64,000 nucleotides of DNA from Elusimicrobiota bacterium (GTDB lineage Bacteria; Elusimicrobiota; Elusimicrobia; UBA1565): assembly GCA_041660925.1 (NCBI GenBank), contig JBAZVI010000002.1, positions 19,906 through 83,905 of the forward strand, given 5' to 3'. This document shows positions 3,604-62,840 of this stretch, piece after piece. Numbering within the stretch: position 1 is the stretch's first letter; every line of letters begins with the position of its first letter. A program made the position numbers and the translations under genes. The notes under the pieces were generated by a model. The model worked only from the letters and a program-made list of their open reading frames with translations. It did not search any database and was not told the DNA's origin.

Positions 3604-3614
3604 GGGCGGAGTCT

Positions 3615-31726: not shown

Positions 31727-31810
31727 ACGTCTTGTATACGGGGCCCGCTTTCAATGCTAGAATCCAGAGGTTCGGATGACGGACGAGAAGCCCATTTCAC
31801 CGGAGGCCTG

Positions 31811-37906: not shown

Positions 37907-39535
37907 TCAGCGGTACTTGCCGCGGGCGACGGGCATGCGCCGGCCGATGCCGAAGGCCTTTCCGGTGATCTTCACTCCGGGAGCGGCCTGGCGGCGCTTG
38001 TACTCGGTGCGGTCGATGCGGTCGAGCACGTCGAGGACGAGGGCCTTGCGGTGTCCCCGGCGGACGATGGCGTCGAGCGTGCGGCCCTCCTCGACGTAGG
38101 CGCGCATGATGTCGTCGAGGACCTCGTAGTCGGGGAGGTCGTCCTGGTCCTTCTGTCCCGGCTTGAGCTCGGCCGAGGGGGCCTTGCGGATGGAGCTCTC
38201 GGGGATGCGCTCCCCTCCGCGGTTGATGAAGCGCGCGAGCTCGTAGACCGTGGTCTTGGGCACGTCCGAGATGAGGGAGAGCCCCCCCGCCATGTCGCCG
38301 TAGAGCGTGCAGTAGCCCACCGAGCACTCCGACTTGTTCCCCGTCGAGAGCAGCAGCGCCCCGCGCTGGTTGCTCAGCGCCATGAGGAGCATCCCGCGCA
38401 GGCGCGCCTGGACGTTCTGCTCGACGAGCGAGCCCGGCGCGGCGGTCTCTCCGAGCGCCCCGAGCGCGGCCTGGTGGATGGGGTTGATGGGGAGCATCAC
38501 CGTCTCGACGCCGAGGTTGCGCGCGAGGGCGAGCGCGTCGTCGACGCTCCCTTTGCTGGAGTACTTCGAGGGCATGAGGACGCCGAGCACGTTGCCCGGG
38601 CCGAGGGCGTCGGCCGCGAGCGTGCAGACGAGAGCCGAGTCGATGCCGCCGCTCAAACCCACGACGGCGCGGGTGAAGCCGCACTTGCGCGCGTAGTCGC
38701 GCAGGCCGAGCAGCAGGGCTTTGTAGATCTCCTCGGTCTCTCCCTCCGCGCGCAGGGCGATGGCCGGCGCGGCGGCGTCCGGGTCGACGAGGACGAGGTC
38801 CTCCCCGAAGCCGCGGGCGAGCGCGACGAGGCGTCCCTTCGCGTCGAGCGCCATGCTCGCGCCGTCGAAGACGAGCTCGTCGTTGCCGCCGACGAGGTTG
38901 CAGTAGAGGAACGGGAGGCGGTGGCGCCGGGCCTGGCTGCGCAGCATCTTCAGGCGGAAGCCGCGCTTGCCGCGGTAGTAGGGCGAGGCGGAGAGGTTGA
39001 GGAGGAGGTCCGCCTTGGCCCGGGCGAGCGCCGCGACCGGGTCGCGGTCATAGAGCGGCTTCTCCCAGAAGGAGCGGTCGTTCCAGGCGTCCTCGCAGAC
39101 GGTGACGCCGAGGCGGCGGCCTTCGAAGGGGATGGGTTCGTTGCGCGGGGAGGGCTCGAAGTAGCGGCCCTCGTCGAAGACGTCGTAGGTCGGGATGAGG
39201 GTCTTGAAGCGCCGGGCGGCGACCTTCCCGCGGTGCAGGAGGGCGGCGGCGTTGAAGAGGGCCTTGCCGCGGCCGCGGTTGGGCTCGGCGTAGCCTACGA
39301 GCATCGCGGTCCGGCGGGAGGCGCGGGCGAGCTCCCCGAGGGCCTTGAGGTTCGCGCGCACGAAGTCGGGCTGGTAGAGCAGGTCCCCCGAGGGGTAGCC
39401 GGGGATGCACAGCTCGGGGAAGAGCACGAGTCCGGCCCCGCGGCGCTCGGCCTCGGCGTAGGCGTGCAGGATGCGGTCGCGGTTCCCTCGGATGTCTCCG
39501 ACGGTGGTGTCGAGCTGGGCGAGCGCGACCTTCAT
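37907..39535 (-). CDS. nadE: glutamine-dependent NAD+ synthetase (N-terminal CN-hydrolase domain + C-terminal synthetase domain)
   Basis: 542 aa; nitrilase-like N-terminus (MKVALAQLDTTVGDI..., LFPELCIPGYP) and NAD synthetase PP-loop GLSGGIDS. Confidence 0.9.
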   Translation of the reverse strand: MKVALAQLDTTVGDIRGNRDRILHAYAEAERRGAGLVLFPELCIPGYPSGDLLYQPDFVRANLKALGELARASRRTAMLVGYAEPNRGRGKALFNAAALLHRGKVAARRFKTLIPTYDVFDEGRYFEPSPRNEPIPFEGRRLGVTVCEDAWNDRSFWEKPLYDRDPVAALARAKADLLLNLSASPYYRGKRGFRLKMLRSQARRHRLPFLYCNLVGGNDELVFDGASMALDAKGRLVALARGFGEDLVLVDPDAAAPAIALRAEGETEEIYKALLLGLRDYARKCGFTRAVVGLSGGIDSALVCTLAADALGPGNVLGVLMPSKYSSKGSVDDALALARNLGVETVMLPINPIHQAALGALGETAAPGSLVEQNVQARLRGMLLMALSNQRGALLLSTGNKSECSVGYCTLYGDMAGGLSLISDVPKTTVYELARFINRGGERIPESSIRKAPSAELKPGQKDQDDLPDYEVLDDIMRAYVEEGRTLDAIVRRGHRKALVLDVLDRIDRTEYKRRQAAPGVKITGKAFGIGRRMPVARGKYR

Positions 39536-39975
39536 CCGCGCAGTTCGCGGCAGAGGTCGGCGAAGATCCCGCCCGCGCCCATGAAGGCCGACTCGATCTC
39601 GTTCTGGACGGCGACGATGACGGGCGGCTGGACCATCTTCATGACCCGCGCGACGCCCTGCAGGCCCCAGGTGAGCATCTCCTGGGGGTCGATGCCGACG
39701 TCCTGGGCGGCGTCGGCGGTGCGGCGGAGGATGAAGACCGCGGACATCGGCAGCTCGCGCTCGATGAGGAGGATCCCGGCCAGAGAGCCGGCGACGACCT
39801 GGCGCACGATCTCGTCGGGGGCCTGCTTCGCGTCGCGGGTACCCTTGATGGCCGCCACGATGGTGCGTTTGACGAGGTCCGCCGTCTTGTCGGGGGCGTC
39901 CGGGACGCCCTTGAACTGGGAGACGACGATCTCCCGGGAGAGCTTCTCGAAATCGTAGGCGTTTTCAGCGTCCAT
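39532..39975 (-). CDS. hypothetical protein (147 aa)
   Basis: Trimmed from ORF 39532..40533 to ATG at 39973-39975 (MDAENAYDFEKL...); stop overlaps nadE start (ATGA); upstream part of the ORF is antisense to the divergent lipoprotein gene. Confidence 0.55.
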   Translation of the reverse strand: MDAENAYDFEKLSREIVVSQFKGVPDAPDKTADLVKRTIVAAIKGTRDAKQAPDEIVRQVVAGSLAGILLIERELPMSAVFILRRTADAAQDVGIDPQEMLTWGLQGVARVMKMVQPPVIVAVQNEIESAFMGAGGIFADLCRELRG

Positions 39976-40011
39976 CGCCTGTAATATACAAAAAAGTATC
40001 ATGTAGCCATC

Positions 40012-40605
40012 ATGACCGGGTCCCTGCGGCGGCTCCTCCTGCTGGCGGCGGCGCTCCCCGTGCTCGCCTGCGCGAACCCGCCGAACTTCGTGAAGAAGAC
40101 CCCCGTGCTGAGGACGCTCTACCGTCCCCCCTTCAAGCCGTACCTCGACAGCCCGGTCTTCTCCTTCGAGATCCGCCGCTCCTGGACGGGCCCCGAGCCC
40201 GTCGCCGGCGGGACGCGCTATCGCTCGAAGGACGGCGCGTCGACCATCGAGGTGGCCTTCCACGCCGAGAACGCGAAGGGCTGGCGGCCCGTCGCGGAGC
40301 TCCGCCGGGACATGGCCGCCTGGGGCTCGGTCGAGGACACGCACACCGTCGTCCCCGTTCGGGTCTCCACCGCGAGCGCCTACCGCGTCGCCTTCACGAG
40401 CTACGAATACGACCCCGAGTACCTGCTCGGCGCGAGTTCCCGCGTCACCTTCACGGACTTCGTGCTCGTGCCGGACCCCGAAGGGATCATCGTCGCCCGC
40501 CTGCGCGTACCCAAGGGCGACTATGAGCGCCACTTGCGGACCTTCAACGAACTCCTGCGCTCGATGGTCATCCGCACCGTGACGTCGGCCGCCGCCGAGG
40601 AGTGA
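40012..40605 (+). CDS. hypothetical lipoprotein
   Basis: 197 aa; signal peptide ending in a lipobox-like LAC (LLLAAALPVLACANPP); no family recognised. Confidence 0.6.
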   Translation: MTGSLRRLLLLAAALPVLACANPPNFVKKTPVLRTLYRPPFKPYLDSPVFSFEIRRSWTGPEPVAGGTRYRSKDGASTIEVAFHAENAKGWRPVAELRRDMAAWGSVEDTHTVVPVRVSTASAYRVAFTSYEYDPEYLLGASSRVTFTDFVLVPDPEGIIVARLRVPKGDYERHLRTFNELLRSMVIRTVTSAAAEE

Positions 40606-40633
40606 GCGGGGCGTTCCGACGGGCCCCGCTCAC
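40602..40633 (+). terminator. stem-loop overlapping the lipoprotein stop codon (terminator-like, no U-tract)
   Basis: gtgagcggggc-loop-gccccgctcac, 11-bp perfect stem. Confidence 0.4.
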
Positions 40634-40847
40634 TCCCCTCACCCCCGCCCCCTCGCCGGCACCCCGACGCTGATAGTGCCGCAGACCGGACGCTTGCGGA
40701 ACCTGTAGTCCGGTCGCCCGCGTGGCGGTAGAGGGGAGGTAGTTTAACGGCGGGGCGTTCCGACGGGTCCCCGGGGGCCCTTGGGCCCACCTTGCGCAAG
40801 GCCTCCCGACCCTTCATCCCGGGCGCATCGCCGGCTATCCTGAGGAC

Positions 40848-41384
40848 ATGGGCCTCACGCTGTGGCCGCGCACACGGGCGGGCGGGAAGGCGGAGAACCG
40901 CCGCGACCATCGCCACTTCTGCGACTTCAAGCTCTCGCTGCTGGACGGTTCCCGCCGCTCCGTCCCCCGCCCGGCGTTCCTCACCGACATGAGCCGCTCC
41001 GGCCTCGGCCTGCGCACGGACCTCCCCTTCTCCGTGGGCGACAAGCTGGGCGTCCAACTCGCGCTCGCGGGCGGCCGGCGCATCGACGCCTCGTGCACGG
41101 TGCGCTGGACGCGTTCGGAGGGCTTCCTCAACTCCTACGGTCTCGAGTTCGAGGGGCTCGCCCGACGCGACCGGGCAGGCATCGCCTCTCTGCTCGAGCC
41201 GGCGCCCGAAGTCGACCGCGTGGGGCTGTTCCTGCAGGCCGGCGCGAGCATCGTCCTCGTCCTGGTCTTCGCCGACCTCATGGCCGGCAGCGACGCCGTG
41301 CGCTCCTCCGTCGTCGGAGCCCTCCCCTACGTCCTCATCTTCGGCGGCTGCCTCGCCGGGCTCTGGGCCTCTTTCCGGTCGTAA
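40848..41384 (+). CDS. PilZ-domain protein with C-terminal membrane segment
   Basis: 178 aa; PilZ motifs RRDHR (RxxxR) and DMSRSGLGL (DxSxxG); hydrophobic C-terminus. Confidence 0.65.
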   Translation: MGLTLWPRTRAGGKAENRRDHRHFCDFKLSLLDGSRRSVPRPAFLTDMSRSGLGLRTDLPFSVGDKLGVQLALAGGRRIDASCTVRWTRSEGFLNSYGLEFEGLARRDRAGIASLLEPAPEVDRVGLFLQAGASIVLVLVFADLMAGSDAVRSSVVGALPYVLIFGGCLAGLWASFRS

Positions 41385-41488
41385 GAGCGCCCGAAACGTG
41401 ATTGTCGCGTTTGGGACCCATATAGGCCTTTAGTCCCATGTCGTCATGGGCCGTTCGGGGCACGCTATCCCTGACGGGAGGGCGCGCC

Positions 41489-41896
41489 ATGGCGGAAACG
41501 GATCGGCGCCGGCATCACCGATACGACCAGGAAGTCAGCGTACAGCTGCGGGGCCAGAACCCCTGCAGCGTCCTCCATGTCATCGATATCAGCATGGGCG
41601 GCCTGGGGTTCCAGCTCTCCGAGCCCCTGAAGGTCGGACAGAAGATCGCCTTCCGCATGGACCTCCCCGCAGGACCCGTGGACGGAGTCGCGGTCGTCCG
41701 CTGGCTCGCCCCCCACCATCTGGGCTGGCGCTGCGGCGTGGAGCTCCGGGACCCGGGCTACCTCGCCCGGCGGCGCATGCGCCTCTTCCTGGAGCCCTGG
41801 TCCTTCAACGCCCTGCGCGTCTTCGACCGCCTTCTCATCGTGCTCGCGCCGACCATCCTCGCGCTGGCCATCCTCGACTCGGTCTTCAGTCGTTGA
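41489..41896 (+). CDS. PilZ-domain protein with C-terminal membrane segment
   Basis: Trimmed from ORF 41438..41896 to ATG at 41489 (MAETDRRRHHRY...) with GGGAGGG 6 nt upstream; PilZ motifs RRRHHR and DISMGGLGF. Confidence 0.65.
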   Translation: MAETDRRRHHRYDQEVSVQLRGQNPCSVLHVIDISMGGLGFQLSEPLKVGQKIAFRMDLPAGPVDGVAVVRWLAPHHLGWRCGVELRDPGYLARRRMRLFLEPWSFNALRVFDRLLIVLAPTILALAILDSVFSR

Positions 41897-41911
41897 ACCG
41901 CTGACGCAACA

Positions 41912-41948
41912 GGGAAGCCCTTGGCACGAAGGGCTTCCCTCTTTGTCC
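41912..41948 (+). terminator. intrinsic terminator after the second PilZ gene
   Basis: 11-bp perfect stem gggaagccctt/aagggcttccc with 6-nt loop, followed by tctttgtcc. Confidence 0.6.
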
Positions 41949-41965
41949 GGGAGGAGACGACGGGT

Positions 41966-42955
41966 CTAGAAGTTTTCCCTGCAGCGGGGGTCGAGCGCGT
42001 CCATGAGGAACGGCAAAGGGCCCTGCGGGGTGACTCGGAAGCCCCAGCGCTCGTGGCCCCAGAGCGGCTCCTTCGTCGTGTAGGCGAGGACGAAGGGGCT
42101 GCCTCCCCGGGTGGGGTCGTAGGCCACGAACTCGAGCGCGCGGGTCTCCGCCATGAGGACGTTGGGCATCGCGACGCAGCCCCCGAGCATGTCTTTCCCT
42201 TCGAAGAGCCGCATGCAGCGGCGGTAGGTCTGGGAGACCTGCGTGCCCTCGACGAGGAGGAAAGCGTCCTTGAGCCCCTTCACGCGCAGGCGCGAGCCGA
42301 AGTCGATCTTCATCTGCAGGCGCAGAGGGTCGGGGTCGGCCGCGAAGTTCCGGCCCTCGTCGTCGCCCGGCTTCACGGCGAAGGAGCCGGTCTTGAGGTC
42401 CTCCACGTTCGCCTTGCGGATGGCGAAGTCGAGGCGCTGGTAGATGCTCTCGCGGACCTCGTTCTTGAGGGCGTAGAAGTGCGCCTTGGAGAGGTCGAAC
42501 GCCGCGTTCTCCTTGAGGAGGATGGCGACGACGGGGGTCCCGACCGTCGCGAAGGCCTCCCGGCTCTCCCCCTTGAGCCACCAGGCGCGCACGCGGGAGG
42601 GCTTGCGGTCCGTGCACGCGGCTCCCCAGTTGGCGCTCGACTTCGCGGCCGTGAACTCCTCGATGCCCGCGCTGCCGATGACGAGGAGGCGGCTGCCCTT
42701 GGCGATGCGGCCCTTTCCCGCGCTCCGGTCGAGGAGCAGCCAGCGCCCGTCGAACGCGTAGACCGGGAAGATGTTCGAAGAGGAGCGCCGCGGTTCGGCG
42801 GTCTTCGGGTTTCCGGCGACGACGTCCCCCACCGTGTAGAGCGTCCCGTCGACGCCGCGGGCTTGGGGCCGCCCGTCGTCCATCCCGACGTAGCCGGTCT
42901 CGGCGGCGCAGGGCGCGGCGAGGACGGCGAGGAGCGCGAGGAGGCGGAGGATCAT
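41966..42955 (-). CDS. hypothetical secreted protein
   Basis: 329 aa; signal peptide MILRLLALLAVLAAPCAAE; no family recognised. Confidence 0.6.
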   Translation of the reverse strand: MILRLLALLAVLAAPCAAETGYVGMDDGRPQARGVDGTLYTVGDVVAGNPKTAEPRRSSSNIFPVYAFDGRWLLLDRSAGKGRIAKGSRLLVIGSAGIEEFTAAKSSANWGAACTDRKPSRVRAWWLKGESREAFATVGTPVVAILLKENAAFDLSKAHFYALKNEVRESIYQRLDFAIRKANVEDLKTGSFAVKPGDDEGRNFAADPDPLRLQMKIDFGSRLRVKGLKDAFLLVEGTQVSQTYRRCMRLFEGKDMLGGCVAMPNVLMAETRALEFVAYDPTRGGSPFVLAYTTKEPLWGHERWGFRVTPQGPLPFLMDALDPRCRENF

Positions 42956-42987
42956 GACCGGATTCTAACAAACTCCGCGGGAGGACA

Positions 42988-43818
42988 TCACGGCGCCGCG
43001 TCGGGCGGGGCGAAGGCCGTGAGGAAGGCGTCGAAGGCGTCCTTCTCTCCGGAGAAGGCCTCGCGGGGGGCGCGCAGGCGCAGCGCGTAGAAGCCTCCGC
43101 CGCGGATGGGGCGCAGGTGGACGCTCTCGCGCTCCACCTTGCGGGTCGAGCCGTACTGCCACTCGTCGCGGGCCATGATGCGCAGGCGGTACATGCTCGG
43201 CTTCGGGATGTCCGGGACCTGCTCGCCCTCGGCCATCGCCATCAGGATGCCGGTCCCGAAGCAGGTGGAGACTACCTGCCGCTGCACGGGACTCAGGCGG
43301 GAGCGGAACTCCGCGAGGTCCCCCTCGCCGGCCTTGAGGCTCCGGTAGCGGCGCAGGGTGCGCCAGGCGTCGAGCTCGATGCAGCGGTAGAGCCGGTAGG
43401 CGTCGCCGCCTTTGGGGAAGCGGCGGGATTCGAAGAAGCTCAGGCGGGGAGGCGAGGGCGAGGTGCCCAGCGTCTCCGCGTACGGATCGCCCTGCTGGAC
43501 CTGGCGGGTGAAGGTCTCGACGTCGATGCCCTCGTAGAGCTCGAAGGCGCGGCCCCCGATCTTCCGGACGGCGCGGCGCGCGCCGGCGCCGAGGTTGCGC
43601 GCGAAGACGGCGGGGTCGCCGTCGGGGTCCTCCGCCGCGTAGCGCTCGACGATGAGCGCGGCCTCCCCGTCGTGCAGCCGCTTGGAGAAGACGGCGACGA
43701 TCGGCGCGCCGAGCCGGGCGTCGCTGGCCTTGTAGCCTTCGGGCGGCGTCAGGGTGATCGGGGCGGCGGTCGAAAGGAGCGTGGAGGTTGCGAGGACGAC
43801 GGCGGCGAGGGCTTCCAT
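42988..43818 (-). CDS. hypothetical secreted protein
   Basis: Trimmed from ORF 42988..45036 to ATG at 43816-43818 (MEALAAVVLATSTLLSTAAP..., signal-like); no family recognised. Confidence 0.55.
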   Translation of the reverse strand: MEALAAVVLATSTLLSTAAPITLTPPEGYKASDARLGAPIVAVFSKRLHDGEAALIVERYAAEDPDGDPAVFARNLGAGARRAVRKIGGRAFELYEGIDVETFTRQVQQGDPYAETLGTSPSPPRLSFFESRRFPKGGDAYRLYRCIELDAWRTLRRYRSLKAGEGDLAEFRSRLSPVQRQVVSTCFGTGILMAMAEGEQVPDIPKPSMYRLRIMARDEWQYGSTRKVERESVHLRPIRGGGFYALRLRAPREAFSGEKDAFDAFLTAFAPPDAAP

Positions 43819-43844
43819 TGGTGGGGATTCTAGCATACGGCTCG

Positions 43845-45158
43845 TTACTGGCCAGCAGCCAGTAACTCGCCCGTGCGTGCATCGAACACCGCCCAGCCCT
43901 CGCCGGGGGTGACGACGGCCACGCGCAGGCCGTCGGCGCTGTAGACGATGCGCGTGCCGGTGGCCGGGTGGATGAGCCCCTCGCGGGCCCACTCGGCGAA
44001 GCGCCGGCGCAGCCAGGGCTCCCCGTCGTGGAGCACGAACCAGCCGTCGCGCGTGCGCCACCACCAGCGGTCCTGATGGCGCACCATCCGAGGACTTCCG
44101 CTCGTCGGCGTCCACCAGCGCGCGCCCTTGCGGATGAGCCAGGCCCAGCGGCCCTCCCGGCCAGCGCCCCAGGCCGCGCCCGCGTGCAGCCACGCGGCGT
44201 TCTTCCCCGCGTGCCAGTGCGGCTTGCGCGCGCCGCCGTCGGCGGCGCGCCAGGCCGCATAGGCCGGTTCGGCGTCCGGCGGCTCGAGGCGCTCGATGAA
44301 GGCCGGCGGCGGGACGCTCGCGCGTACCGGCGTCCCGTCGGGCAGGGCCGCCGGGGTGAGCGCCCTGAGGTGGGCGAAGCTCGGCGCGGCGAGCTTCCCC
44401 GTCGGCGGGTCGAAGGGGTCCTTCCCCAGCCAGTGCTTGAGGGTCGGCGGCCGGAACTCGAAGGGACGACTCTTCTTCGCAGGCTTCGACGCGGCCTTCT
44501 TCGGGGCGCGCAGGGCCGCGAGCAGGGGCTCCGGCAGCGGCGCCATCCGGCCCTCGAAGTCCGCGCGGGCCTCGACCGCTTCGACTTCGCGCCAATCGTC
44601 GATGTCGGTCCCGTGCGTGGAGCCGCCGTTGCGGCGGTGTCCAGCTCTCTGTCCGCGCACGCGCTCGGAGGAGGCTCCTCCTGAAGCGTGGGAGTCCCCC
44701 CCCGCTTGCGCGGGGGCATCCGCATCGTTGGCGCGCGTCCATTCCCCCGCCCGGGATGCGCGGGCCGACAGGTCCGAGAAGGCCCCCGCGCCCACGGCGT
44801 CGCGCAGAGCTTCTCCTTCGCGCGGACGGGCGGAGTCCGTCGCGCGGGCCCGGGCCGAGCTGTGCTCTGAGAGCCGGGCGAGCGCCCGCTCGAGCCGAGT
44901 CAGGTCCTCGCGGTAGAAGGCTTCCACCCGCTCGGGAGTAGGCGACGACGCCTCCGGACGGGGCGGGTTTGGCACCGCGCCCTTCCTCGGCGGAGCGCCC
45001 GGCAGCAGCGAACGCAGCGCGCTCAATGTCCGGCAATCGCTCAGGAAGGGCGGCAGGTCGTTTTCGGGGAGCAGGAGCAGGGCGAACGAGAGCCCCGCCA
45101 GCAGGCCGCCCAGTCCGGCCGCCGCTTTGCGCCTCCAGGAGACCTCTCCGAAGGGCAT
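43845..45158 (-). CDS. hypothetical membrane-anchored protein with Trp-rich C-terminal domain
   Basis: 437 aa; N-terminal TM helix, long Ala/Arg/Ser-rich low-complexity region, W-rich C-terminal domain; coding status partly uncertain in high-GC DNA. Confidence 0.45.
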   Translation of the reverse strand: MPFGEVSWRRKAAAGLGGLLAGLSFALLLLPENDLPPFLSDCRTLSALRSLLPGAPPRKGAVPNPPRPEASSPTPERVEAFYREDLTRLERALARLSEHSSARARATDSARPREGEALRDAVGAGAFSDLSARASRAGEWTRANDADAPAQAGGDSHASGGASSERVRGQRAGHRRNGGSTHGTDIDDWREVEAVEARADFEGRMAPLPEPLLAALRAPKKAASKPAKKSRPFEFRPPTLKHWLGKDPFDPPTGKLAAPSFAHLRALTPAALPDGTPVRASVPPPAFIERLEPPDAEPAYAAWRAADGGARKPHWHAGKNAAWLHAGAAWGAGREGRWAWLIRKGARWWTPTSGSPRMVRHQDRWWWRTRDGWFVLHDGEPWLRRRFAEWAREGLIHPATGTRIVYSADGLRVAVVTPGEGWAVFDARTGELLAAGQ

Positions 45159-45236
45159 GGCATACTCTTGCTCCGGAGAGGTCCAGGGGGCAGGGCCGCG
45201 CGGGCCTCCCGATACAGGGCCTCCGGGCCTATATTG

Positions 45237-45902
45237 TCAGTGAAGGGGCGGTTTGGGAGGTCCTTCGAGCTTCGTCAGGCGCGCATCGTGGCTTCGGATC
45301 GTCTTCCCGTGCTCGGAGAGGATGTGGTCGTTCATGATGGTCTTCTCGTCGTTGCTCGCCATCCGCTGGAGGGCGACGCGGATGTAGTCCTTGAGCTCCG
45401 CGAAGTCCTTCTTCGTGGTGAACTCCGTGCGCATCGCCTTCAATTCTTTTTGAAGGGAGACGACCATCCCAGCGATGCGGTTGGTGATGGCCTTGTGGCT
45501 TTCCCCATCGGCCCTCAGCCAGCTGACATCGGTCTTCAGCGTGCTGACATCGGCTTTCAGGGTGCTGATGTCGGCTTTCATGGGCGCAAGTTCAGTCTTC
45601 GTCGCCATGTCTGCGATGTCCCGCTTCATGGCGATGCCAAGCTGCTGGATGTCATTCTTGGTCGCGATGGCCAGCGCTTGCAGATCGCGCTTGGACGCGG
45701 TGGAGAGTGCTTGCAGATCGCGCTTGGTCGCGGTGGAGAGTGCTTGCAGATCGCGCTTGGTCGCGGTGGAGAGTGCTTGCAGATCGCGCTTGGTCGCGGT
45801 GGAGAGCGCTTGCAGATCGCGCTTGGACGCGGTGGAGAGTGCTTGCAGATCGCGTTTGGTGGCGGGAGCGTTGAGTTCGGCGCTCTTCATGTCGTCTTCC
45901 AT
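45237..45902 (-). CDS. coiled-coil protein with six 11-residue tandem repeats (TKRDLQALSTA)
   Basis: Trimmed from ORF 45237..45995 to ATG at 45900-45902 (MEDDMKSAELN...) with AAGAGGGGAA upstream; repeats encoded by 33-bp tandem DNA repeats. Confidence 0.6.
   Translation of the reverse strand: MEDDMKSAELNAPATKRDLQALSTASKRDLQALSTATKRDLQALSTATKRDLQALSTATKRDLQALSTASKRDLQALAIATKNDIQQLGIAMKRDIADMATKTELAPMKADISTLKADVSTLKTDVSWLRADGESHKAITNRIAGMVVSLQKELKAMRTEFTTKKDFAELKDYIRVALQRMASNDEKTIMNDHILSEHGKTIRSHDARLTKLEGPPKPPLH
45676..45873. repeat. 33-bp tandem repeat, about six copies, in-frame within a CDS
   Basis: Unit gcttgcagatcgcgcttgg(a/t)cgcggtggagag(t/c) repeated head-to-tail, last copy degenerate. 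Confidence 0.85.
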
Positions 45903-46042
45903 GGTAGCAGTTCCCCTCTTTTCGGATAAGGGCCCAAGGTCCCATACTTGCCCGGGTCTGCCCAAGTTACGATTGAGAGGTGCGAATAGTTCCATTGAGG
46001 GAAGCGCGGCCGGACGGGAGAAGGGATGAAAGCTGATGCTCC

Positions 46043-46183
46043 CTAGCGGGAGCGCGAGCTCTTCAGGTCCAGCTCGAAGGCGATCTTCGAACGATTCTCC
46101 CAGAAATGCGCCATCTTCTGCCTTGCCGACTTGCGGGGACGCGCAGAAGAGGCCGCGGCTTTTCTTGGTCGAGAGGCGGTCAT
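46043..46183 (-). CDS. hypothetical small basic protein (46 aa)
   Basis: ATG overlaps gmd stop (ATGA); Arg/Lys-rich; could equally be non-coding. Confidence 0.2.
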
Positions 46184-47190
46184 TTCTTTATGAGCTTGTC
46201 GGGGTCGAGGCCGGCGAGTTTGAGGTCCTCGCGCACCATGAGGCGCACGAGCTCCTTGAAGCCCACCTTCGGCTTCCAGCCCAGGGCCTTGCGCGCCTTG
46301 GAGGCGTCGCCGATGAGGAGGTCCACCTCGGTCGGGCGCAGGTAGCGCGGGTCGTAGCGGACGAAGTCCTTCGGGTCGAGCTCGACGAGCCCGAAGGCCT
46401 CGTCGAGGAACTCGCGCACGGTGTGGGTCTCGCCGGTGGCGATGACGAAGTCGTCGGCCTTGGGCTGCTGGAGCATGAGCCACATCGCCTCGACGAAGTC
46501 CTTGGCGTAGCCCCAGTCGCGCTTGGAGTCGAGGTTCCCCAGGTGCAGGTGTTCCTGCTTCTTGGCCAGGATGTTGGCCAGCGCCATCGTGATCTTGCGG
46601 GTCACGAAGGTCCCGCCGCGGCGCGGGGACTCGTGGTTGAAGAGGATGCCGTTGGCGGCGTAGATGCCGTACGCCTCGCGGTAGTTCACCGTGGTCCAGT
46701 AGGCGTAGACCTTGGCGCAGGCGTAGGGGCTGCGCGGGTAGAAGGGCGTGGCCTCCGTCTGCGGCACCTGCTGCGCCTTGCCGAACATCTCGGAGCTCGA
46801 GGCCTGGTAGAAGCGCGTCGGGATGCCCGTGTCGCGGATGGCGTCGAGGAGGCGGGTCGTGCTCAGGCCCGTCACGTCGCCGGTGTACTCGGGAGTGTCG
46901 AAGCTCACGCGCACGTGGCTCTGGGCGCCCAGGTGGTAGATCTCGTCGGGCACGAGCTTGCGCAGGATGTGGTTCAGGCCCGAGGAGTCGCTCAAGTCCC
47001 CGTAGTGCAGGAAGAGCTTCACGCCCTCGGTGTGCGGGTCGCGGAAGATGTGGTCGATGCGCTCGGTGTTGAACGAGCTCGAGCGCCGGATGACCCCGTG
47101 CACCTCGTAGCCCTTCTCCAGCAGGAGCTCCGCCAGATAGGACCCGTCCTGCCCCGTGATGCCCGTGATCAGCGCCTTTTTCGTTGCCAT
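46180..47190 (-). CDS. gmd: GDP-mannose 4,6-dehydratase
   Basis: 336 aa; [20 protein letters not shown]-terminus and SDR catalytic YACAK motif typical of Gmd. Confidence 0.9.
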
Positions 47191-47225
47191 GTCGTCCGCG
47201 ATTCTAGCAGTTTTCGTCCGAGGAG

Positions 47226-47462
47226 CTACTCGAGTGGAAGCGAATCGATAGTGGCAGGCGGGGAGTCTAAACCGGCGAGGAAACGCGCTACGAATTTTGC
47301 AGCGATGAGCCCGGCGAGCAGGATGAGGATAAGTCGGAGTTGCGTGGCGTGGAAGCGCCGCACCTTCATGTACTTCTTGTAGACGACACCGTCGCGCGTG
47401 ACCTTCCCGATGAATTTGCGACGGTATAATACGCGTTCCCAGCGGGAAGAGGGCATAGGCAC
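47226..47462 (-). CDS. hypothetical small membrane protein (78 aa)
   Basis: ORF track only; one hydrophobic helix; lower-GC region. Confidence 0.35.
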
Positions 47463-47532
47463 ATTTCTCTGTTGTCTCTCTCCGTTTGGAGCGAGAGTCG
47501 GATGTGCGCGGAAGGACGGTGCATCCTACAAA

Positions 47533-48687
47533 TTACAGGAGCATCTCTTCATCCCGATGGCATGGGAGCGTCGAGGGCTTTGATTTCTGCTCATGCAATA
47601 GTGCTAGCTCATGTCCGCGTCGAAGCATCGGCCGCTCAAGCAGATAGAAACTGATTGTGGCGCAGATGAACGCCGCAAGGACGTTCAAAGGGAATGCCTG
47701 TGCGAGACCCAGCGGCCGTCCTGCGAGCTCCGACCCGCTTACGAGGAATATCTGTTGCCAGAGGTAGAGGCCGTAAGAGATTCTCCCTACCCAGCGCAGC
47801 CACGGCAATTCCAGCATGCGACCTGCCAAGGTGTGGGGATTCAGCATCGTGCATGCGACCAGCGCGGCAGCGGATATCCCAAGGAGCATCGTCATGAGCG
47901 GAGGACGAAAGATGACGATCGCAAAGAAGCCGAAGAAAAGGAGTGGGAACTTCGATGGGGAAAGGACGCGTCGGGAGCGTGCTAGCCACGTGGGATACTC
48001 GAATAGAATCGCGGTGAGGCATCCCCAAAGCAGGCCGTCGAACCTCAGATCCGTCCGTGCGGAGCGGTTGAGGCCGGGTATAAACGCATCGACGATCCCG
48101 AATTGCCCATCGAGATTCCTCCAGATCGGGAGAATGAGTACGGCAAGAACGAGAGCGGTCCTTCCATTCCGTATGCCCAGCATCGCGAGACATACAGGCC
48201 AAAGCAAGTAGAACTGTTCTTCGATGGATAGCGACCATATGTGCGCGGTGTACCATCCGTGTCCCGGCGCATATGTGAGCAGGTTGCGAATGTGGAGAAG
48301 ACAAGTCATCCATTCTCCGCGAGAGACATTCACTCCAAAGAGTATCGAGATAACCGCCAAAATGAATAGGAATAACGCGTATGCGGGGATGATTCGGAAT
48401 GCTCGACGGAGATAAAAAGGCAGAAGGGCGAAATCTCCGATTTTCCGTTTATCGCGTATCAGTCTGTTCGTGATGAGAAAACCACTGAGCGTAAAAAAAA
48501 GGTCCACCCCGCAACTGCCGTTGCGCAGGATATTATCGAAAATCCAGGAGAGGACTCTGCCGGGTGGGGTCGGCATGGCTGCGCTGGCATGGGCGACCAA
48601 GACGAGGAGTATAGCGACGCCTCTCCATCCATCCAAAGTCGGGAGATGCCCTTGTAAGAATGAACGCGCATCCTTTTCGCGTTGCAT
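47533..48687 (-). CDS. acyltransferase family 3 membrane protein (OafA/OatA-like O-acyltransferase)
   Basis: Trimmed from ORF 47533..49065 to ATG at 48685-48687 (MQREKDARSFLQGHLPTLDGWRGVAILLVLVAH...); polytopic, acyltransferase-3-like N-terminal motif. Confidence 0.7.
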   Translation of the reverse strand: MQREKDARSFLQGHLPTLDGWRGVAILLVLVAHASAAMPTPPGRVLSWIFDNILRNGSCGVDLFFTLSGFLITNRLIRDKRKIGDFALLPFYLRRAFRIIPAYALFLFILAVISILFGVNVSRGEWMTCLLHIRNLLTYAPGHGWYTAHIWSLSIEEQFYLLWPVCLAMLGIRNGRTALVLAVLILPIWRNLDGQFGIVDAFIPGLNRSARTDLRFDGLLWGCLTAILFEYPTWLARSRRVLSPSKFPLLFFGFFAIVIFRPPLMTMLLGISAAALVACTMLNPHTLAGRMLELPWLRWVGRISYGLYLWQQIFLVSGSELAGRPLGLAQAFPLNVLAAFICATISFYLLERPMLRRGHELALLHEQKSKPSTLPCHRDEEMLL

Positions 48688-48689
48688 CG

Positions 48690-49739
48690 CTAGAAGATGC
48701 GGCTTCGGAATACGAGGATCTGATAGGGGCGCATAAGATGGCGCCCGCCCATCTCGATCAGGAGTTCCGGCAGGTAGCGGCGCGGCTCGAAGAGCGGGAT
48801 CCAGTGCCGATCGAAGAGTGCCTGCGGGCATTCGATGTAGCGGCTGGTGGTATTCGCGATGACGATGTAGTCGCGCAGGCGGTAGCGCCAGGCTTTCGCC
48901 TTGAGGCCAGCGGCGAGGTTTGCAAACGGAGGCGGCTTCGGAGTTCCTTTCTCGAGGATCGGCCGCATAACGGCGAGTTCCCGGACCACCCAGGTCAGGG
49001 CGAACCATAGCGCGGGAGCGTCGGAGAGTACCGCTCCATTCGGCCGGCGGTAGGTGTAGAACCAAAGGCCCTTTGCCCCTTCGAGAATGGCGTGATAACT
49101 CATGAACCGGAGCTCAAGAATGTCAGGGAAGCGGCCGATGGCCGGTTTCCCCGACGGGGGTTTTAGATAATCGCGCCAATCCATCGCTTGCAGAACCGCC
49201 CATACCGGCTTCCCATTTGCTGCGGCGACGGTCATCCTCACCTGTTCACCTAGTGATTCGAGGGGCCGATGGGGCACTGGGTACCAATCCACCATCAGGG
49301 CGTCGCCGCTGGCCGAGTAGCGCTCGGCGGAAGCTCCCCGACCGACGACGAAGGCCGTGGGCGCTCCGTGGGACCAGCCCTTCACTTTACGCTCGAAGGC
49401 GGCGAGCTCTTCCGGAGGGGTCCTGGCGACGTCGGGTTCGTCCTGGAGATACCAGGCGGCGAGTGGGAACCCTTTCGTCGAGACGGTGGAGGTCAGAAGT
49501 TCGTGTGGATGGACGAGAATCCGCATCCGCTCCTTCCGAGCCGCCGATGCAATCGCGTGGAGGGTCGAGGGCTCCCGCGAATAACTCTGGAGCGCGTTGA
49601 AACCTTCCCTGCTCAGTAGCGCGACGGCAGCCGGGTCGTCGACCCCAAATAGGCCGAGCGGGAACCATTGCCCCGGGGCGGACGGTTTTCGAGAGCAGCC
49701 GCAGGTTATGATGAGAAGTCCGATGAAGAGTCTCTTCAC
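48690..49739 (-). CDS. hypothetical lipoprotein/secreted protein
   Basis: From ORF 48690..49826; likely GTG start at 49737-49739 overlapping capD stop (GTGA), giving a signal-like N-terminus KRLFIGLLIITCGC. Confidence 0.55.
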   Translation of the reverse strand: MKRLFIGLLIITCGCSRKPSAPGQWFPLGLFGVDDPAAVALLSREGFNALQSYSREPSTLHAIASAARKERMRILVHPHELLTSTVSTKGFPLAAWYLQDEPDVARTPPEELAAFERKVKGWSHGAPTAFVVGRGASAERYSASGDALMVDWYPVPHRPLESLGEQVRMTVAAANGKPVWAVLQAMDWRDYLKPPSGKPAIGRFPDILELRFMSYHAILEGAKGLWFYTYRRPNGAVLSDAPALWFALTWVVRELAVMRPILEKGTPKPPPFANLAAGLKAKAWRYRLRDYIVIANTTSRYIECPQALFDRHWIPLFEPRRYLPELLIEMGGRHLMRPYQILVFRSRIF

Positions 49740-51598
49740 GGCGACCGGGTGGGTGCTGCGGGCTGGTATGCAGGGACCAAGTCTTTCATCATGTTCCGGA
49801 TGGGCGCAGAGTCCGCAAGCGAGCACAAGCGCTTAAGTTCGCTGATCTGGTCGCGCAAGATCGAGAGGTCGGCCTCTTCGGGGACGGCGGCGAAGATGTC
49901 GGGGTGCCCGGTGTCCATGCGCACATCGTGTGGACGAAACAGCTCCTCGTACATCTTCTCTCCGGGACGCATCCCTGTGAAGACGATCTTGATGTCGCGA
50001 TCGGGTTCGAATCCCGAGAGAAGGATGAGGTTGCGTGCGACGTCCAACACTTTGACGGGTTCGCCCATGTTCAGCACGAAGATCTCCCCGCCTCTGCCCA
50101 GGAAGGCTGCATGAAGGATGAGCTGGACGGCCTCTTCCGTGGTCATGAAGTAGCGGGTCACATCAGGATGCGTGACCGTGACCGGACCTCCCTGGGCGAT
50201 CTGCTCCTTGAAGATGTTGATCGCGCTGCCGGAACTCCCCAAGACGTTGCCGAATCGGACCGATATGAACTTCGTCGAAGACGTCCCGGAGAACGCCCGG
50301 ATGATCATTTCCGCCATGCGCTTCGAGACGCCCATGACACTGGTGGGGCGGACGGCCTTGTCCGTCGATATGAAGAGGAAGCGCTCGACGCCGTGCCGGG
50401 CGCACTTCTCGGCGAGGAGATGGGTGCAGAGGGTGTTGTTCTTGACCGCTTCCTGGGGATTCGATTCCATGAGCGGGACGTGCTTATGCGCGGCGGCATG
50501 GAAGACCAGTTGTGGCCTGTGTGTGACGAAGAGGTTTTCCAGCAGGTCGGCGTCTCCGACGTCGCCCGCGATGGCGAGGCGCGTGACGACGGAGTTCATG
50601 GCGGAAAGCTCCCGGTCGATGTAGAACAAGTCGGTGTTGTGCTTCTCCAGAAGCAGGAGCTTCGAGGGACCGAATCGCATAATCTGCCTAGCGAGCTCCG
50701 AGCCGATGGTCCCCCCCGCGCCGGTCACCAGTACGGTCTTGCCCTGAAGGATGCCTCGGACCGAGGCGAGGTCGGTCTTCACAGACTTGCGAGGGAGGAG
50801 GTCGGCGAGCTCGATCTTGCGCATGCCGCGGGGCTGAGAGTTGTCCTTGCGCAGGGTTTCCTCGAGGGTGGGGACTGTCTTGAACTGGACTTTGAAGCCG
50901 TCTGAGTGGGGGCAGATTTCCATAAGACTCTTGATCAGCGGGCCGCGAGAGTGGTTCACGGCCACGACGATCTCATCGATCTGCTTCTGGGCGATGATCC
51001 TCGGCAGATCTTGACGGCAGCCGAGGATGGCGATTCCATGGATGCTCCGGTGGAGCTTGGCAGGATCGTCATCGATGAAGCCGATGACCCTGTGCGTCTT
51101 GTAGTCTCGGCGTTGCATGTCGCGCACGATGCTTTCCCCCAGGTCTCCGGCGCCGAAGATGAGCACTCTGGGTAGGCTCGAAGTGTCCTGCTGATAGCGC
51201 CATTCGCGCGTGAGCCGGATGGCGAACCGGATCGAGCCGACCAGGATGAGGGTAAGGAGCGGGTCGATGAAGAGCACCGATCTCGGGAATCGCGGGTGCT
51301 GGATGAGCATGAGCGAGGCGATGATGAAGATCTGGCTGGAGCTGACGGCCTTGAACAGGGCGTTCAAGTCCGACATGCTCGCATAGCGCCAGACGCCGGC
51401 GTAGGCTCCGAAGTACGCGAAGGCTCCGGTGCGGAGAAGGACGACGATCCCGATCGTCGACGCGCAGATGCTCAACTCATGCCCGGGCACCTGGAAGTCG
51501 AATCGGAGAAGGAATGCAAGAGCGTAGGAGACGAGGAAAGCCGAGATGTCCGCGAAGAGGACTAAGGGGCGGCTGAATGCAATGAGTCTCTTATACAT
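49736..51598 (-). CDS. membrane-anchored nucleotide-sugar 4,6-dehydratase (CapD/PglF/WbpM family)
   Basis: From ORF 49736..51652, probable ATG at 51596-51598 (MYKRLIAF...); N-terminal TM helices then SDR domain with LVTGAGGTIGSEL. Confidence 0.8.
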   Translation of the reverse strand: MYKRLIAFSRPLVLFADISAFLVSYALAFLLRFDFQVPGHELSICASTIGIVVLLRTGAFAYFGAYAGVWRYASMSDLNALFKAVSSSQIFIIASLMLIQHPRFPRSVLFIDPLLTLILVGSIRFAIRLTREWRYQQDTSSLPRVLIFGAGDLGESIVRDMQRRDYKTHRVIGFIDDDPAKLHRSIHGIAILGCRQDLPRIIAQKQIDEIVVAVNHSRGPLIKSLMEICPHSDGFKVQFKTVPTLEETLRKDNSQPRGMRKIELADLLPRKSVKTDLASVRGILQGKTVLVTGAGGTIGSELARQIMRFGPSKLLLLEKHNTDLFYIDRELSAMNSVVTRLAIAGDVGDADLLENLFVTHRPQLVFHAAAHKHVPLMESNPQEAVKNNTLCTHLLAEKCARHGVERFLFISTDKAVRPTSVMGVSKRMAEMIIRAFSGTSSTKFISVRFGNVLGSSGSAINIFKEQIAQGGPVTVTHPDVTRYFMTTEEAVQLILHAAFLGRGGEIFVLNMGEPVKVLDVARNLILLSGFEPDRDIKIVFTGMRPGEKMYEELFRPHDVRMDTGHPDIFAAVPEEADLSILRDQISELKRLCSLADSAPIRNMMKDLVPAYQPAAPTRSP

Positions 51599-51673
51599 GG
51601 TCGCAGAACTCGAGGTATCTCGGGTGCCGAGCCGTTCGGCTCGGGTGAGCATATCCGGCGGATAGAGGAGTAT

Positions 51674-53575: not shown

Positions 53576-54527
53576 CGGTGGGCCCGACGGCGGCCGGAGC
53601 GAGTACGCGGAGGAGGTTCAGGATCGTATTCTCGTGGACCCTTGCCGCGGAGGATGGACTGCTGTTCGCGTTGTGCGGGGAAAGCAGGCAGTTGCTGTGG
53701 CGGCGCAACGGGCTGTCCGCCGGAAGCGGTTCTCGCTCGTAGACATCGAGTGCGGCTCCGGCAAGTCGTCTCTCGTCGAGCGCTTGCGCCAGCGCGGACT
53801 CCACGACGACCGGGCCTCTCGAAGTGTTGATGAGGTACCCCGAAGAGCGCATCCTCTTCAAGGCCGCGGCGTCGATGAGACTGCGGCTGGTCTCGTTGAG
53901 GTCGGGGTGGAGGGAGACGAAGTCCGACTCTTCGAGGAGTCGTTCCCGGTTCACAATCGACATCCCGACGGCGTCCAGATAACCTCTTTCCGGGATGACA
54001 GGGTCGCAGCCGAGGATGCGCATGCCGAATGCCGCCGCGCGGCGGCCTACTGCCCGGCCGATGTTTCCCACCCCGATGATTCCCAAGGTCTTTTCCTTGA
54101 GTGCGAAGAGTTGGGGCTTCTCCCAAAGGCCATTGCGCATATCCTGATCCATGCGGGCGAGACCGCGCGCAAAGAGGAGCATGTATCCAAGGACAGTGTC
54201 TGCGACGGGCTCAGTGAAAGCATCGGGTGTGTTTCTAACGGGGATTCCGCGAGCCGCCGCCGCGACCTTGTCGATCGAATCGATGCCTGTTCCCCATTTC
54301 GAGATGACCTTGAGTCGCGGAGCGGCGTCCAGGACCTTTGCGGTGATCTGGTCGTCTCCGCAGATGATTCCGTCGACGTCCTTGATCAGCTCGAGAAGCT
54401 CTCCTTCCGTCAGGCGCTCGCGGACTCTGGCGATGACAAGCTCGCAACCGGCCTCCTCGAGGCGCCTACGGTAGATGTCGAGGACGGGCATGACGTACGG
54501 CGCGGAGATTAAGACGCGAGACTTCAT
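53568..54527 (-). CDS. D-isomer-specific 2-hydroxyacid dehydrogenase (phosphoglycerate dehydrogenase-like)
   Basis: 319 aa; NAD-binding GIIGVGNIGRAVG and 2-hydroxyacid dehydrogenase-like catalytic region. Confidence 0.8.
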   Translation of the reverse strand: MKSRVLISAPYVMPVLDIYRRRLEEAGCELVIARVRERLTEGELLELIKDVDGIICGDDQITAKVLDAAPRLKVISKWGTGIDSIDKVAAAARGIPVRNTPDAFTEPVADTVLGYMLLFARGLARMDQDMRNGLWEKPQLFALKEKTLGIIGVGNIGRAVGRRAAAFGMRILGCDPVIPERGYLDAVGMSIVNRERLLEESDFVSLHPDLNETSRSLIDAAALKRMRSSGYLINTSRGPVVVESALAQALDERRLAGAALDVYEREPLPADSPLRRHSNCLLSPHNANSSPSSAARVHENTILNLLRVLAPAAVGPTDA

Positions 54528-56247: not shown

Positions 56248-56269
56248 GGAGGGATTCGCTCTAGCGTAG

Positions 56270-62792: not shown

Positions 62793-62840
62793 TCAGTAAT
62801 GTCCCGAAATCATTTTGAAGGGAAGTCTTGTCGCCGGATG

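What the first reader, a model, noticed from the sequence alone, without database searches (positions are those of the whole stretch)
41966..45158. Cluster of three co-oriented secreted or membrane proteins with no recognisable family
Two signal-peptide proteins and a membrane-anchored protein with a long low-complexity region and a Trp-rich C-terminal domain are packed with 30-bp spacers between two terminators. This is a candidate envelope-associated module of unknown function.
Basis: inference. Interest (0 to 1): 0.45.

Follow-up and report, generated by a model that had tools for sequence, protein, structure and literature searches.

The report
Elusimicrobial envelope gene pair, unknown families
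Three neighbouring genes of an uncultured Elusimicrobiota bacterium encode a membrane-anchored protein and two exported proteins that match no known family; the anchored protein and one exported partner stay side by side across dozens of related species, so they probably work together in the cell envelope, but what they do is unknown.

Summary
The three minus-strand genes are real: A 43845-45158, B 42988-43818, C 41966-42955. The window is an Elusimicrobiota MAG of about 70% GC.

- **B** has a hydrophobic N-terminus without basic residues. Eight of its 17 family members are lipoproteins, and its C-terminus is related to the nearby lipoprotein p197.

None of the three matches Pfam, NCBIfam, PADLOC, PHROGs or PDB sequences.

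The conserved core is the A-C pair. A lies directly upstream of C in 53 of 69 Elusimicrobiota loci. B occurs only in the window's subclade, where A has lost a conserved tail and C has gained an N-terminal extension.

B and C each sit 6-8 nt behind a TGnTAGAAT element. The equivalent element precedes C in 44 of 61 loci, suggesting its own leaderless transcript. Only the downstream terminator is supported.

My reading is a lineage-specific periplasmic A-C complex tethered to the inner membrane. Its function is unresolved.

The parts
43845..45158 (-). Gene A, 437 aa. A bitopic membrane protein with a short basic N-terminus, one membrane anchor, a disordered linker and a Trp-rich C-terminal domain.
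   Evidence: ORF. Identical to WC969_02875. An A-like protein of about 450 aa lies upstream of C in all five other loci fetched by exact protein look-up and in 53 of 69 genome loci.
45069..45125 (-). Membrane anchor of A (residues ~12-30), preceded by WRRK. Predicted N-in, C-out.
   Evidence: Kyte-Doolittle 19-mer maximum 2.09 at residue 12. Most of the 46 full-length family members show the same basic N-terminus followed by a hydrophobic stretch; 23 exceed the 1.6 cut-off and no second hydrophobic segment occurs.
44469..45053 (-). Low-complexity linker of A (residues ~36-230), not conserved in sequence but conserved in length.
   Evidence: Composition A 18%, R 13.5%, P 9.5%, S 9.5%. In most relatives the linker is about 200-245 aa, 73-93% disorder-promoting residues and usually net basic. 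It does not align between homologues.
43848..44468 (-). Conserved C-terminal domain of A (207 aa). It starts with a Pro-rich segment of ~80 aa, continues as an 8-strand beta-meander with invariant Trp, then a helix, and ends in a 4-strand WD40-like blade.
43851..43952 (-). WD40-like single repeat at the end of A (residues ~403-436, YSADGLRVAVVTPGEGWAVFDARTGELL).
   Evidence: Profile positions ~163-203 hit 12-19 stretches each in 1000-1900-aa proteins. Those proteins are WD40 proteins by Pfam. The same positions hit Apaf-1 WD40 repeats at E 0.002. Pfam WD40 itself is not reached.
42988..43818 (-). Gene B, 276 aa (an alternative in-frame start lies at 43836). Probably exported, clade-specific, with a C-terminus related to lipoprotein p197.
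   Evidence: Identical to WC969_02870. Seventeen homologues were found, all named ones Elusimicrobia. Eight of the 17 aligned family members carry a lipobox Cys. hhalign against p197 gives probability 94.6% and E 6.6e-8 over 51 columns. B is present in only about 11 of 69 loci.
41966..42955 (-). Gene C, 329 aa. A secreted protein with a signal peptide, a disordered segment (residues 16-53), a beta-barrel-like N-domain, a cystatin/NTF2-like helix-on-sheet domain, and a highly conserved C-terminal part (RRCxRL, FVAYDP, PLWGHERWGF, DPRCRExF).
42962..42970 (-). TGTTAGAAT, an extended -10-like element ending 6 nt before the ATG of C.
   Evidence: An equivalent TGnTAnnnT ends 5-9 nt (mode 7) before the C start codon in most of the 44 of 61 related loci that carry it within 14 nt of the start, against a background expectation of 0.24%.
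43827..43835 (-). TGCTAGAAT, an extended -10-like element ending 8 nt before the ATG of B at 43818.
   Evidence: (the only sigma-70-like hit in 41000-46500).
41911..41940 (.). 12-bp G+C-rich hairpin between the convergent genes C and PilZ. Terminator-like in both directions.
   Evidence: -32.1 kcal/mol (z -3.2) on the minus strand and -34.2 kcal/mol (z -3.5) on the plus strand. The U tracts are weak, and the consensus scan did not call it.
40012..40605 (+). p197, a lipoprotein (LAC lipobox) and conserved neighbour. Its C-terminal ~50 aa are homologous to the C-terminus of B.
   Evidence: Found in 61 of 69 loci. hhalign to B. No Pfam or PDB relatives.
40848..41896 (+). Two PilZ-domain proteins with C-terminal hydrophobic helices (40848-41384 and 41438-41896), convergent with C. 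A frequent but not universal neighbour.
   Evidence: Pfam PilZ E 6e-12 for both. A PilZ gene lies next to C in all six distinct loci returned with gene tables. RxxxR and DxSxxG motifs appear in further loci, while several loci have no PilZ slot.

Best explanation
A and C are a lineage-specific pair of extracytoplasmic proteins that act together, most likely as a physical complex held at the inner membrane. B is an accessory in the window's subclade.

**Shown**
- A has a signal-anchor N-terminus, a linker of roughly constant length (~200-245 aa in most relatives) but non-conserved, disorder-type sequence, and a compact Trp-rich beta domain of a fold not seen in the PDB. That domain ends in one WD40-like blade.
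- C has a cleavable signal peptide and two conserved Cys pairs. One pair sits at cross-strand positions of a hairpin, which fits a disulfide and therefore the periplasm.
- C has a two-part fold with a cystatin/NTF2-like cone.
- The A-C gene order is kept across species that share only 38-60% identity.

**Inferred**
- A projects its globular domain into the periplasm on a flexible spacer and docks C.
- In most lineages the contact would use A's conserved Pro/Arg-rich C-terminal tail.
- In the window's clade the tail is gone. The contact would be rebuilt from C's N-terminal extension and from B, a paralogue of the neighbouring lipoprotein p197.
- The aromatic-rich sheet of A and the cone of C are the likely ligand or partner surfaces.
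- The genomic company is GDP-mannose dehydratase and other sugar enzymes, lytic transglycosylase, PBP1 and membrane PilZ proteins. It points loosely to cell-wall or surface-polysaccharide upkeep rather than metabolism.

C is additionally expressed from its own extended -10 promoter as a leaderless mRNA. This would allow more C than A.
For: - **Topology.** for the A anchor and linker; for the C signal peptide, conserved Cys and hairpin register; for lipoboxes in B relatives.
- **Linkage.** A lies directly upstream of C on the same strand in 53 of 69 species-level loci, and most of the rest lack enough upstream DNA. In B-less loci the gap between the A stop and the C start has mode 13 nt and median 20 nt (n=41). 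The genes upstream of A vary between loci: Gmd, coiled-coil proteins, PBP1A, epimerases.
- **Coupled changes.** The A tail is absent in all 10 loci that have both A and B, and present in at least 34 of 43 B-less loci. C's N-terminus is 51-108 aa in the B/p265 clade against a median of 27 aa elsewhere.
- **Mirror tree.** The partial correlation of A and C distances given NadE is 0.34, with 0 of 2000 Mantel permutations reaching it.
- **Folds.**
- **B and p197.** Homology shown.
- **Promoter.**
Against: - No experiment or annotation bears on function.
- All loci come from one phylum, so conserved order could partly be inherited synteny. NadE, p145 and p197 are conserved nearby too.
- Seven or eight loci have C without an adjacent A.
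- The coupled tail, B and N-extension changes are a single phylogenetic event.
- Partial Mantel tests are known to be liberal.
- B's export is uncertain, because its N-terminus has no basic residue.
- Separate promoter-like elements before B and C weaken the argument from co-transcription.
- The link to cell wall or polysaccharide rests only on variable neighbours.
Confidence: 0.45

Rival explanations
1. The genes are unrelated neighbours in a conserved core-genome block. Their order is inherited synteny within one lineage, and each protein has its own separate role.
For: The same block also keeps NadE, p145, p197 and often GlyS and Gmd. All 69 loci are Elusimicrobiota. B and C have their own promoter-like elements. 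C occurs without an adjacent A in L023, L025, L030, L033, L036, L051 and L063.
Against: The A-C junction is 13-20 nt in most loci, and A's stop codon lies inside C's -10 element. Genes upstream of A change while A-C stays together. The tail, B and N-extension changes are coupled. The A-C residual distance correlation is 0.34 after removing the NadE signal.
Confidence: 0.2
2. C is a periplasmic proteinaceous inhibitor or regulator of an envelope hydrolase (lytic transglycosylase, lysozyme-type enzyme or protease) built on a cystatin-like domain. A tethers or presents it.
Against: Only 77-104 of about 270 folded residues align, at 4-11% identity. The same cone fold serves NTF2, VirB8, Tim44 and ARC6 proteins with no inhibitor role. 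The cystatin QxVxG motif is absent from the family consensus. SLT adjacency was seen directly upstream in only 2 loci and nearby in a few more.
Confidence: 0.12
3. A is a functional analogue of TonB, TolA or FtsN: a periplasm-spanning transducer or divisome tether whose C-terminal domain binds peptidoglycan or an outer-membrane partner. C would be its periplasmic cofactor.
For: The architecture is the same: short cytoplasmic N-terminus, one TM helix, a long Pro/Ala-rich disordered spacer and a C-terminal globular domain. The aromatic-rich beta-hairpins are of the kind that often bind glycans (general knowledge, not tested).
Against: No exbBD or tolQR genes lie within +/-10 kb in any locus examined. 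The TM has no conserved His or SHLS motif. There is no TonB_C, TolA_C or SPOR match by Pfam or fold. Elusimicrobia already have a Pro-rich TolA with Tol-Pal (PMC12204202).
Confidence: 0.12
4. The cluster is part of a c-di-GMP-controlled exopolysaccharide secretion or modification apparatus. The input would come through the adjacent membrane PilZ proteins, and C's barrel would act like a membrane-fusion-protein domain.
Against: No synthase, polymerase, outer-membrane porin or Wza-type gene was identified as a conserved neighbour. PilZ is missing in several loci. The sugar genes vary between loci, and in the window they belong to a lower-GC island. The fold scores are marginal.
Confidence: 0.08

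Closest known systems
TonB / TolA periplasmic force transducers
   Same: N-in single-pass anchor, a long disordered Pro/Ala-rich periplasmic spacer and a globular C-terminal domain, encoded next to periplasmic partners.
   Different: There are no ExbBD or TolQR neighbours and no conserved TM His motif. The C-terminal domain is a Trp-rich beta-meander plus a WD40-like blade, not the TonB_C/TolA_C alpha/beta fold.
FtsN / SPOR-domain divisome proteins
   Same: A bitopic protein with a ~200-aa unstructured linker and a small C-terminal domain presumed to reach the cell wall.
   Different: No SPOR domain by Pfam or fold search. The locus lies in no division gene cluster.
Cystatin / latexin / NTF2-like cone domains (including VirB8, Tim44 and ARC6 intermembrane-space domains)
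   Different: This covers under a third of C at 4-11% identity. There is no QxVxG motif. C has an extra N-terminal barrel and a unique, highly conserved C-terminal sheet carrying WGHERWG. No sequence relation was found.
WD40 beta-propeller repeats
   Same: A's last ~40 residues match the WD40 repeat profile pattern (YS.DG..vA....dg.v.lWDa.tG) and fold as a 4-strand blade.
   Different: There is a single unit rather than 4-8. No propeller is present in the model, and Pfam WD40 is not reached.
CPAP/TCP10 G-box single-layer beta-sheet
   Same: An extended meander of consecutive beta-hairpins. The G-box binds a Pro-rich peptide along the sheet, and A has a conserved Pro-rich segment before its meander. 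These were the best Foldseek hits (probability 0.5-0.75).
   Different: TM-scores are only 0.22-0.31 and E is about 0.04-0.08. There is no sequence relation, and the G-box is a eukaryotic centriole protein.

Membership tests
TonB/TolA-type transducers | C-terminal TonB_C or TolA_C domain | tested here: not met
TonB/TolA-type transducers | Partner motor genes (exbBD or tolQR) in the neighbourhood, and a conserved His/SHLS motif in the TM helix | tested here: not met
   Gene tables of six loci at +/-8-10 kb show none. The TM sequences of 46 relatives lack a conserved His.
TonB/TolA-type transducers | N-in anchor plus a long disordered periplasmic spacer | tested here: met
   Judged by hydropathy and composition only; no dedicated topology predictor was available.
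WD40 beta-propeller | Several tandem WD40 repeats closing a propeller | tested here: not met
   Only profile positions ~163-203 match WD40 repeats. The self-comparison finds no further repeat. The model has one blade.
Cystatin superfamily inhibitors | Cystatin fold (helix on a 5-strand antiparallel sheet) | tested here: met
Cystatin superfamily inhibitors | Inhibitory wedge motifs (N-terminal Gly, QxVxG loop, PW loop) | tested here: not met
   Not present in the family consensus or among the invariant columns. There is no Pfam cystatin hit in 60 members.
Sec-exported periplasmic protein (C) | N-terminal signal peptide with basic n-region, hydrophobic core and an AxA-type cleavage site | tested here: met
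   By inspection of C and about 60 orthologues. The conserved Cys pairs are consistent with this. SignalP was not available.
Bacterial lipoprotein (B) | Lipobox [LVI][ASTG][GAS]C at the end of the signal peptide | tested here: not met
   The window's B has no Cys in its N-terminus and no basic n-region. Eight of the 17 aligned family members do carry a lipobox.
Anti-phage defence systems or phage genes | Match to PADLOC or PHROGs models | tested here: not met
   No hits for A, B, C or p197.
Intrinsic-terminator-bounded operon | Stable hairpin with a U tract at both ends of the cluster | tested here: inconclusive
   The downstream hairpin is strong but its U tract is weak. The upstream region has no significant structure.

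The most novel reading that the evidence does not exclude
A and C are the two halves of a previously undescribed periplasmic assembly. A's Trp-rich meander and lone WD40-like blade would complete, or be completed by, the beta-sheets of C as a split, two-chain beta-structure. The assembly would hang on a ~200-aa spacer from the inner membrane and would couple through the p197-type lipoprotein and membrane PilZ proteins to c-di-GMP signalling. That would make it a new kind of trans-envelope module restricted to free-living Elusimicrobiota, with A's domain a new fold.
Probability: 0.1. Interest if true: 0.65.

Novelty: categorically new. Interest (0 to 1): 0.4.

Why it matters
If A and C do form an envelope complex, they would define new protein families. 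A's domain would also be a new fold, in a phylum whose free-living, high-GC lineages appear here only as metagenome-assembled genomes. That would add a lineage-specific component to diderm envelope biology.

The practical value is more modest. The work gives a well-delimited, conserved gene pair with high-confidence models, ready for complex prediction or heterologous expression. It also gives a clear example of a conserved extended -10 element placed for leaderless transcription in Elusimicrobiota.

Without functional data this remains one of many conserved hypothetical clusters.

Tried and rejected
- **Known families by sequence.** Pfam, NCBIfam, PADLOC and PHROGs found nothing for A, B, C or p197, whether tested singly or over all family members.
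- **PDB sequence profiles.** Nothing for B, C or p197. For A, only the WD40-like end matched.
- **Paralogy among A, B and C.** hhalign probabilities were 2.5% or lower.
- **Internal repeats in A's domain.** Only a 17-residue echo at E 0.02.
- **Extra domains in longer A forms.** By eye these show only longer low-complexity linkers; Pfam was not run on them.
- **A-C fusion in L057.** The apparent fusion ORF is a frameshifted A, not a real fusion.
- **Other copies.** No second copy of any of the genes in the window.
- **RNA families.** No Rfam hit in 39500-47500.
- **AFDB fold libraries.** These were unavailable.
- **Structure job with locus-derived sequences.** I rebuilt the alignment from the representative-search hits, and that was accepted.
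- **Systematic PilZ census.** High-GC ORF calling made it unreliable.
- **cc252.** The coiled-coil protein upstream of A is not conserved in the other loci.
Full report
**What is there**

The window is about 70% G+C up to ~46 kb and about 60% beyond.
- A, 43845-45158, 437 aa.
- B, 42988-43818, 276 aa, with an alternative in-frame ATG at 43836.
- C, 41966-42955, 329 aa.

They are identical to three consecutive hypothetical proteins, WC969_02875, WC969_02870 and WC969_02865, of an Elusimicrobiota metagenome-assembled genome. The spacers are 26 nt and 32 nt.

Flanking genes:
- Downstream and convergent: two PilZ-domain membrane proteins and a 197-aa lipoprotein (p197). Beyond them lies a small ORF followed by NAD synthetase.
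- Upstream on the same strand: a repeat-rich coiled-coil protein, GDP-mannose 4,6-dehydratase and an acyltransferase.

**Checking the observation**

- A begins MPFGEVSWRRK followed by a 19-residue hydrophobic segment.
- It then has about 200 residues rich in Ala, Arg, Pro and Ser, and a C-terminal 202 residues with 16 Trp.
- C has a textbook signal peptide.
- In shorter orthologues the signal ends at AxA and is followed directly by QDEYGxxGIFPVY.
- B's N-terminus is hydrophobic but has no basic residue and no lipobox.
- Eight of the 17 aligned B family members have a lipobox Cys, so export of B is an inference.
- A strong 12-bp hairpin follows C (z -3.2). The 78 nt before A fold no better than shuffled sequence.
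- The claim of two terminators is therefore only half right.

**No known family**

- Pfam, NCBIfam, PADLOC and PHROGs give nothing for A, B or C. This holds both for the window proteins and for all 38, 17 and 60 aligned family members.
- Profiles of B and C find no PDB sequence.
- A, B and C are not related to each other.

**Structure of A's domain**

- The model of the 207-aa C-terminal domain used a 38-sequence alignment and reached pLDDT 93 and pTM 0.85.
- It consists of a conserved Pro-rich ~80 residues, eight consecutive beta-strands carrying the invariant Trp residues, a helix, and a four-strand sheet.
- A profile search of 1.8 billion representatives found about 80 A-like proteins of ~450 aa.
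- The same search hit thousands of large proteins 12-19 times each with profile positions ~163-203. Three sampled examples are WD40 proteins.
- The end of A is therefore one WD40-like blade. Pfam WD40 is not reached, and no further repeat is detectable.

**Structure of C**

- The model of C reached pLDDT 84 and pTM 0.80.
- The four conserved Cys are C114, C247, C260 and C325.
- C247 and C260 occupy cross-strand positions of the hairpin 243-252/255-262. That fits a disulfide and hence an oxidising compartment.

**Co-occurrence**

- Look-ups of C homologues returned the order A-like, then optional B, then C, with a convergent PilZ gene and the small ORF plus NadE further on.
- A scan of one genome per species found 69 loci. 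All are Elusimicrobia-labelled MAGs except one unclassified "bacterium" record, and none is a cultured strain.
- A's domain lies directly upstream of C on the same strand in 53 of them.
- Of the other 16, eight or nine end too close to C to tell.
- Seven or eight have a different upstream gene. In L051 and L063 that gene is an SLT lytic transglycosylase immediately before C.
- B occurs in about 11 loci, all in the subclade nearest the window. p197 occurs in 61.
- In B-less loci the gap from the A stop to the C start has mode 13 nt and median 20 nt (n=41).
- The genes upstream of A differ between loci: Gmd, large coiled-coil proteins, PBP1A, epimerases.

**Coupled changes in the window's clade**

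- In at least 34 of 43 B-less loci, A ends in a conserved 22-24-residue tail, (R/E)W.E.E[LM]P.R.RP.AP..L.LPR(GI). All 10 loci with both A and B lack it, and so does the window.
- In the same clade C carries a 30-80-residue insertion between the signal peptide and the GIFPVY motif.
- B's C-terminal ~50 residues are homologous to those of p197 (hhalign 94.6%, E 6.6e-8).
- This is one evolutionary event, so it cannot be given a statistic.
- It reads as a remodelling of one interface that involves A's C-terminus, C's N-terminus and a p197-like module.
- A mirror-tree test on 27 loci gives a partial correlation of A and C distances, given NadE, of 0.34. For C and p197 it is 0.51, and for A and p197 it is 0.13. 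This is suggestive only.

**Expression signals**

- TGnTAGAAT ends 8 nt before the ATG of B and 6 nt before the ATG of C.
- Across relatives, 44 of 61 loci carry TGnTAnnnT within 14 nt upstream of the C start codon. In most of them it ends 5-9 nt before the start (mode 7). The background expectation is 0.24%.
- In many loci A's TGA stop supplies the TG of the element.
- In the window, six of the seven occurrences of the motif lie 6 to about 20 nt before start codons.
- This is the signature used to infer leaderless genes. It is probably a general promoter type of this organism.
- B and C can therefore be transcribed on their own, in addition to any read-through from A.

**Interpretation**

The best-supported reading is a lineage-specific extracytoplasmic pair.
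- A is tethered N-in in the inner membrane. It holds a novel Trp-rich beta domain on a spacer of roughly constant length but free sequence.
- C is a disulfide-bonded periplasmic protein that works with A, probably by direct binding.
- B is a p197-derived accessory in one subclade.

The neighbours are sugar-nucleotide enzymes, SLT, PBP1A and PilZ membrane proteins. They hint at cell-wall or surface-polysaccharide upkeep, but they vary between loci, and this step is inference.

Rival readings:
- Mere synteny.
- A cystatin-type inhibitor of an envelope hydrolase.
- A TonB/TolA/FtsN-like tether.
- A c-di-GMP-controlled polysaccharide apparatus.

None is excluded. For the three named-family rivals, defining features tested here are not met: no motor genes, no TonB_C or SPOR domain, no inhibitory motifs and no conserved synthase or porin. 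Elusimicrobia already possess a Pro-rich TolA (PMC12204202).

**Novelty and score**

- By sequence and by fold, none of the three proteins can be filed under a known family. I therefore rate the distance from known systems as categorically new at the family level.
- The general architecture, an anchored spacer protein plus periplasmic partners, is familiar.
- Nothing is known about function, and such clade-restricted conserved hypotheticals are common.
- Interest is therefore moderate, at 0.4.

Noticed in passing
window 42962-42970(-), 43827-43835(-), 47201-47209(-), 45901-45909(-), 31755-31763(+), 39993-40001(-): TGnTAnnnT, mostly TGCTAGAAT, occurs seven times in the 64 kb. Six of the seven lie 6 to about 20 nt upstream of start codons: B, C, gmd, an internal ATG of the coiled-coil gene, a plus-strand gene near 31.8 kb, and p145. 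This looks like the organism's general extended -10 promoter with leaderless or very short-leader mRNAs.
   Followed up: partly
L028-L079 (B-less loci), junction of A and C: A's TGA stop codon is the TG of the -10-like element in front of C (GGGATTTGATATTCT followed by 7 nt and ATG). The last residues of A's conserved tail (PRGI*) therefore overlap the putative promoter of C.
   Followed up: partly
window 45237-45995 (-): The upstream ORF encodes a coiled-coil protein with 6.3 copies of a 33-nt (11-aa, TKRDLQALSTA) repeat at 93% identity and 3.6 copies of a 21-nt repeat. Its true start is probably the ATG near 45890, behind a TGCTACCAT element. It has no counterpart in the 69 related loci.
   Followed up: partly
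window ~46000-64000: G+C drops from about 0.70 to about 0.60 beyond ~46 kb. The first genes there are GDP-mannose 4,6-dehydratase (46180-47190) and an Acyl_transf_3 protein (47533-48660). This suggests a surface-polysaccharide island of different composition next to the cluster.
   Followed up: partly
window 40848-41384 and 41438-41896 (+): Tandem PilZ-domain proteins each end in one or two hydrophobic helices, so they are membrane-anchored c-di-GMP receptor candidates. A PilZ gene sits convergent to C in many related loci but is missing in several (L041, L047, L068, L070-L072).
   Followed up: partly
window 40012-40605 (+); L028 7352-8506, L047 6840-8033: The lipoprotein p197 is conserved in 61 of 69 loci. 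In the B-less clade it forms the C-terminal part of a ~385-410-aa lipoprotein. It has no Pfam or PDB relatives. Its distances co-vary with those of C (partial r 0.51 given NadE).
   Followed up: partly
L051 882-1808, L063 4919-5845, L036 3604-4581: In loci where A is not upstream of C, an SLT-type lytic transglycosylase gene takes that place. In L051 and L063 it lies directly before C on the same strand.
   Followed up: no
L057 (CP096137.1, complete genome) 2896-6837: The A gene appears split over two reading frames and is fused in-frame to C in a 1314-codon ORF. This is probably a frameshift or assembly indel rather than a real fusion.
   Followed up: no
L005 3620-4477(-), L010 7060-7857(-): In sister loci a further uncharacterised secreted protein (p265, 265-285 aa) is inserted on the opposite strand between B and C. 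It is absent from the window.
   Followed up: no
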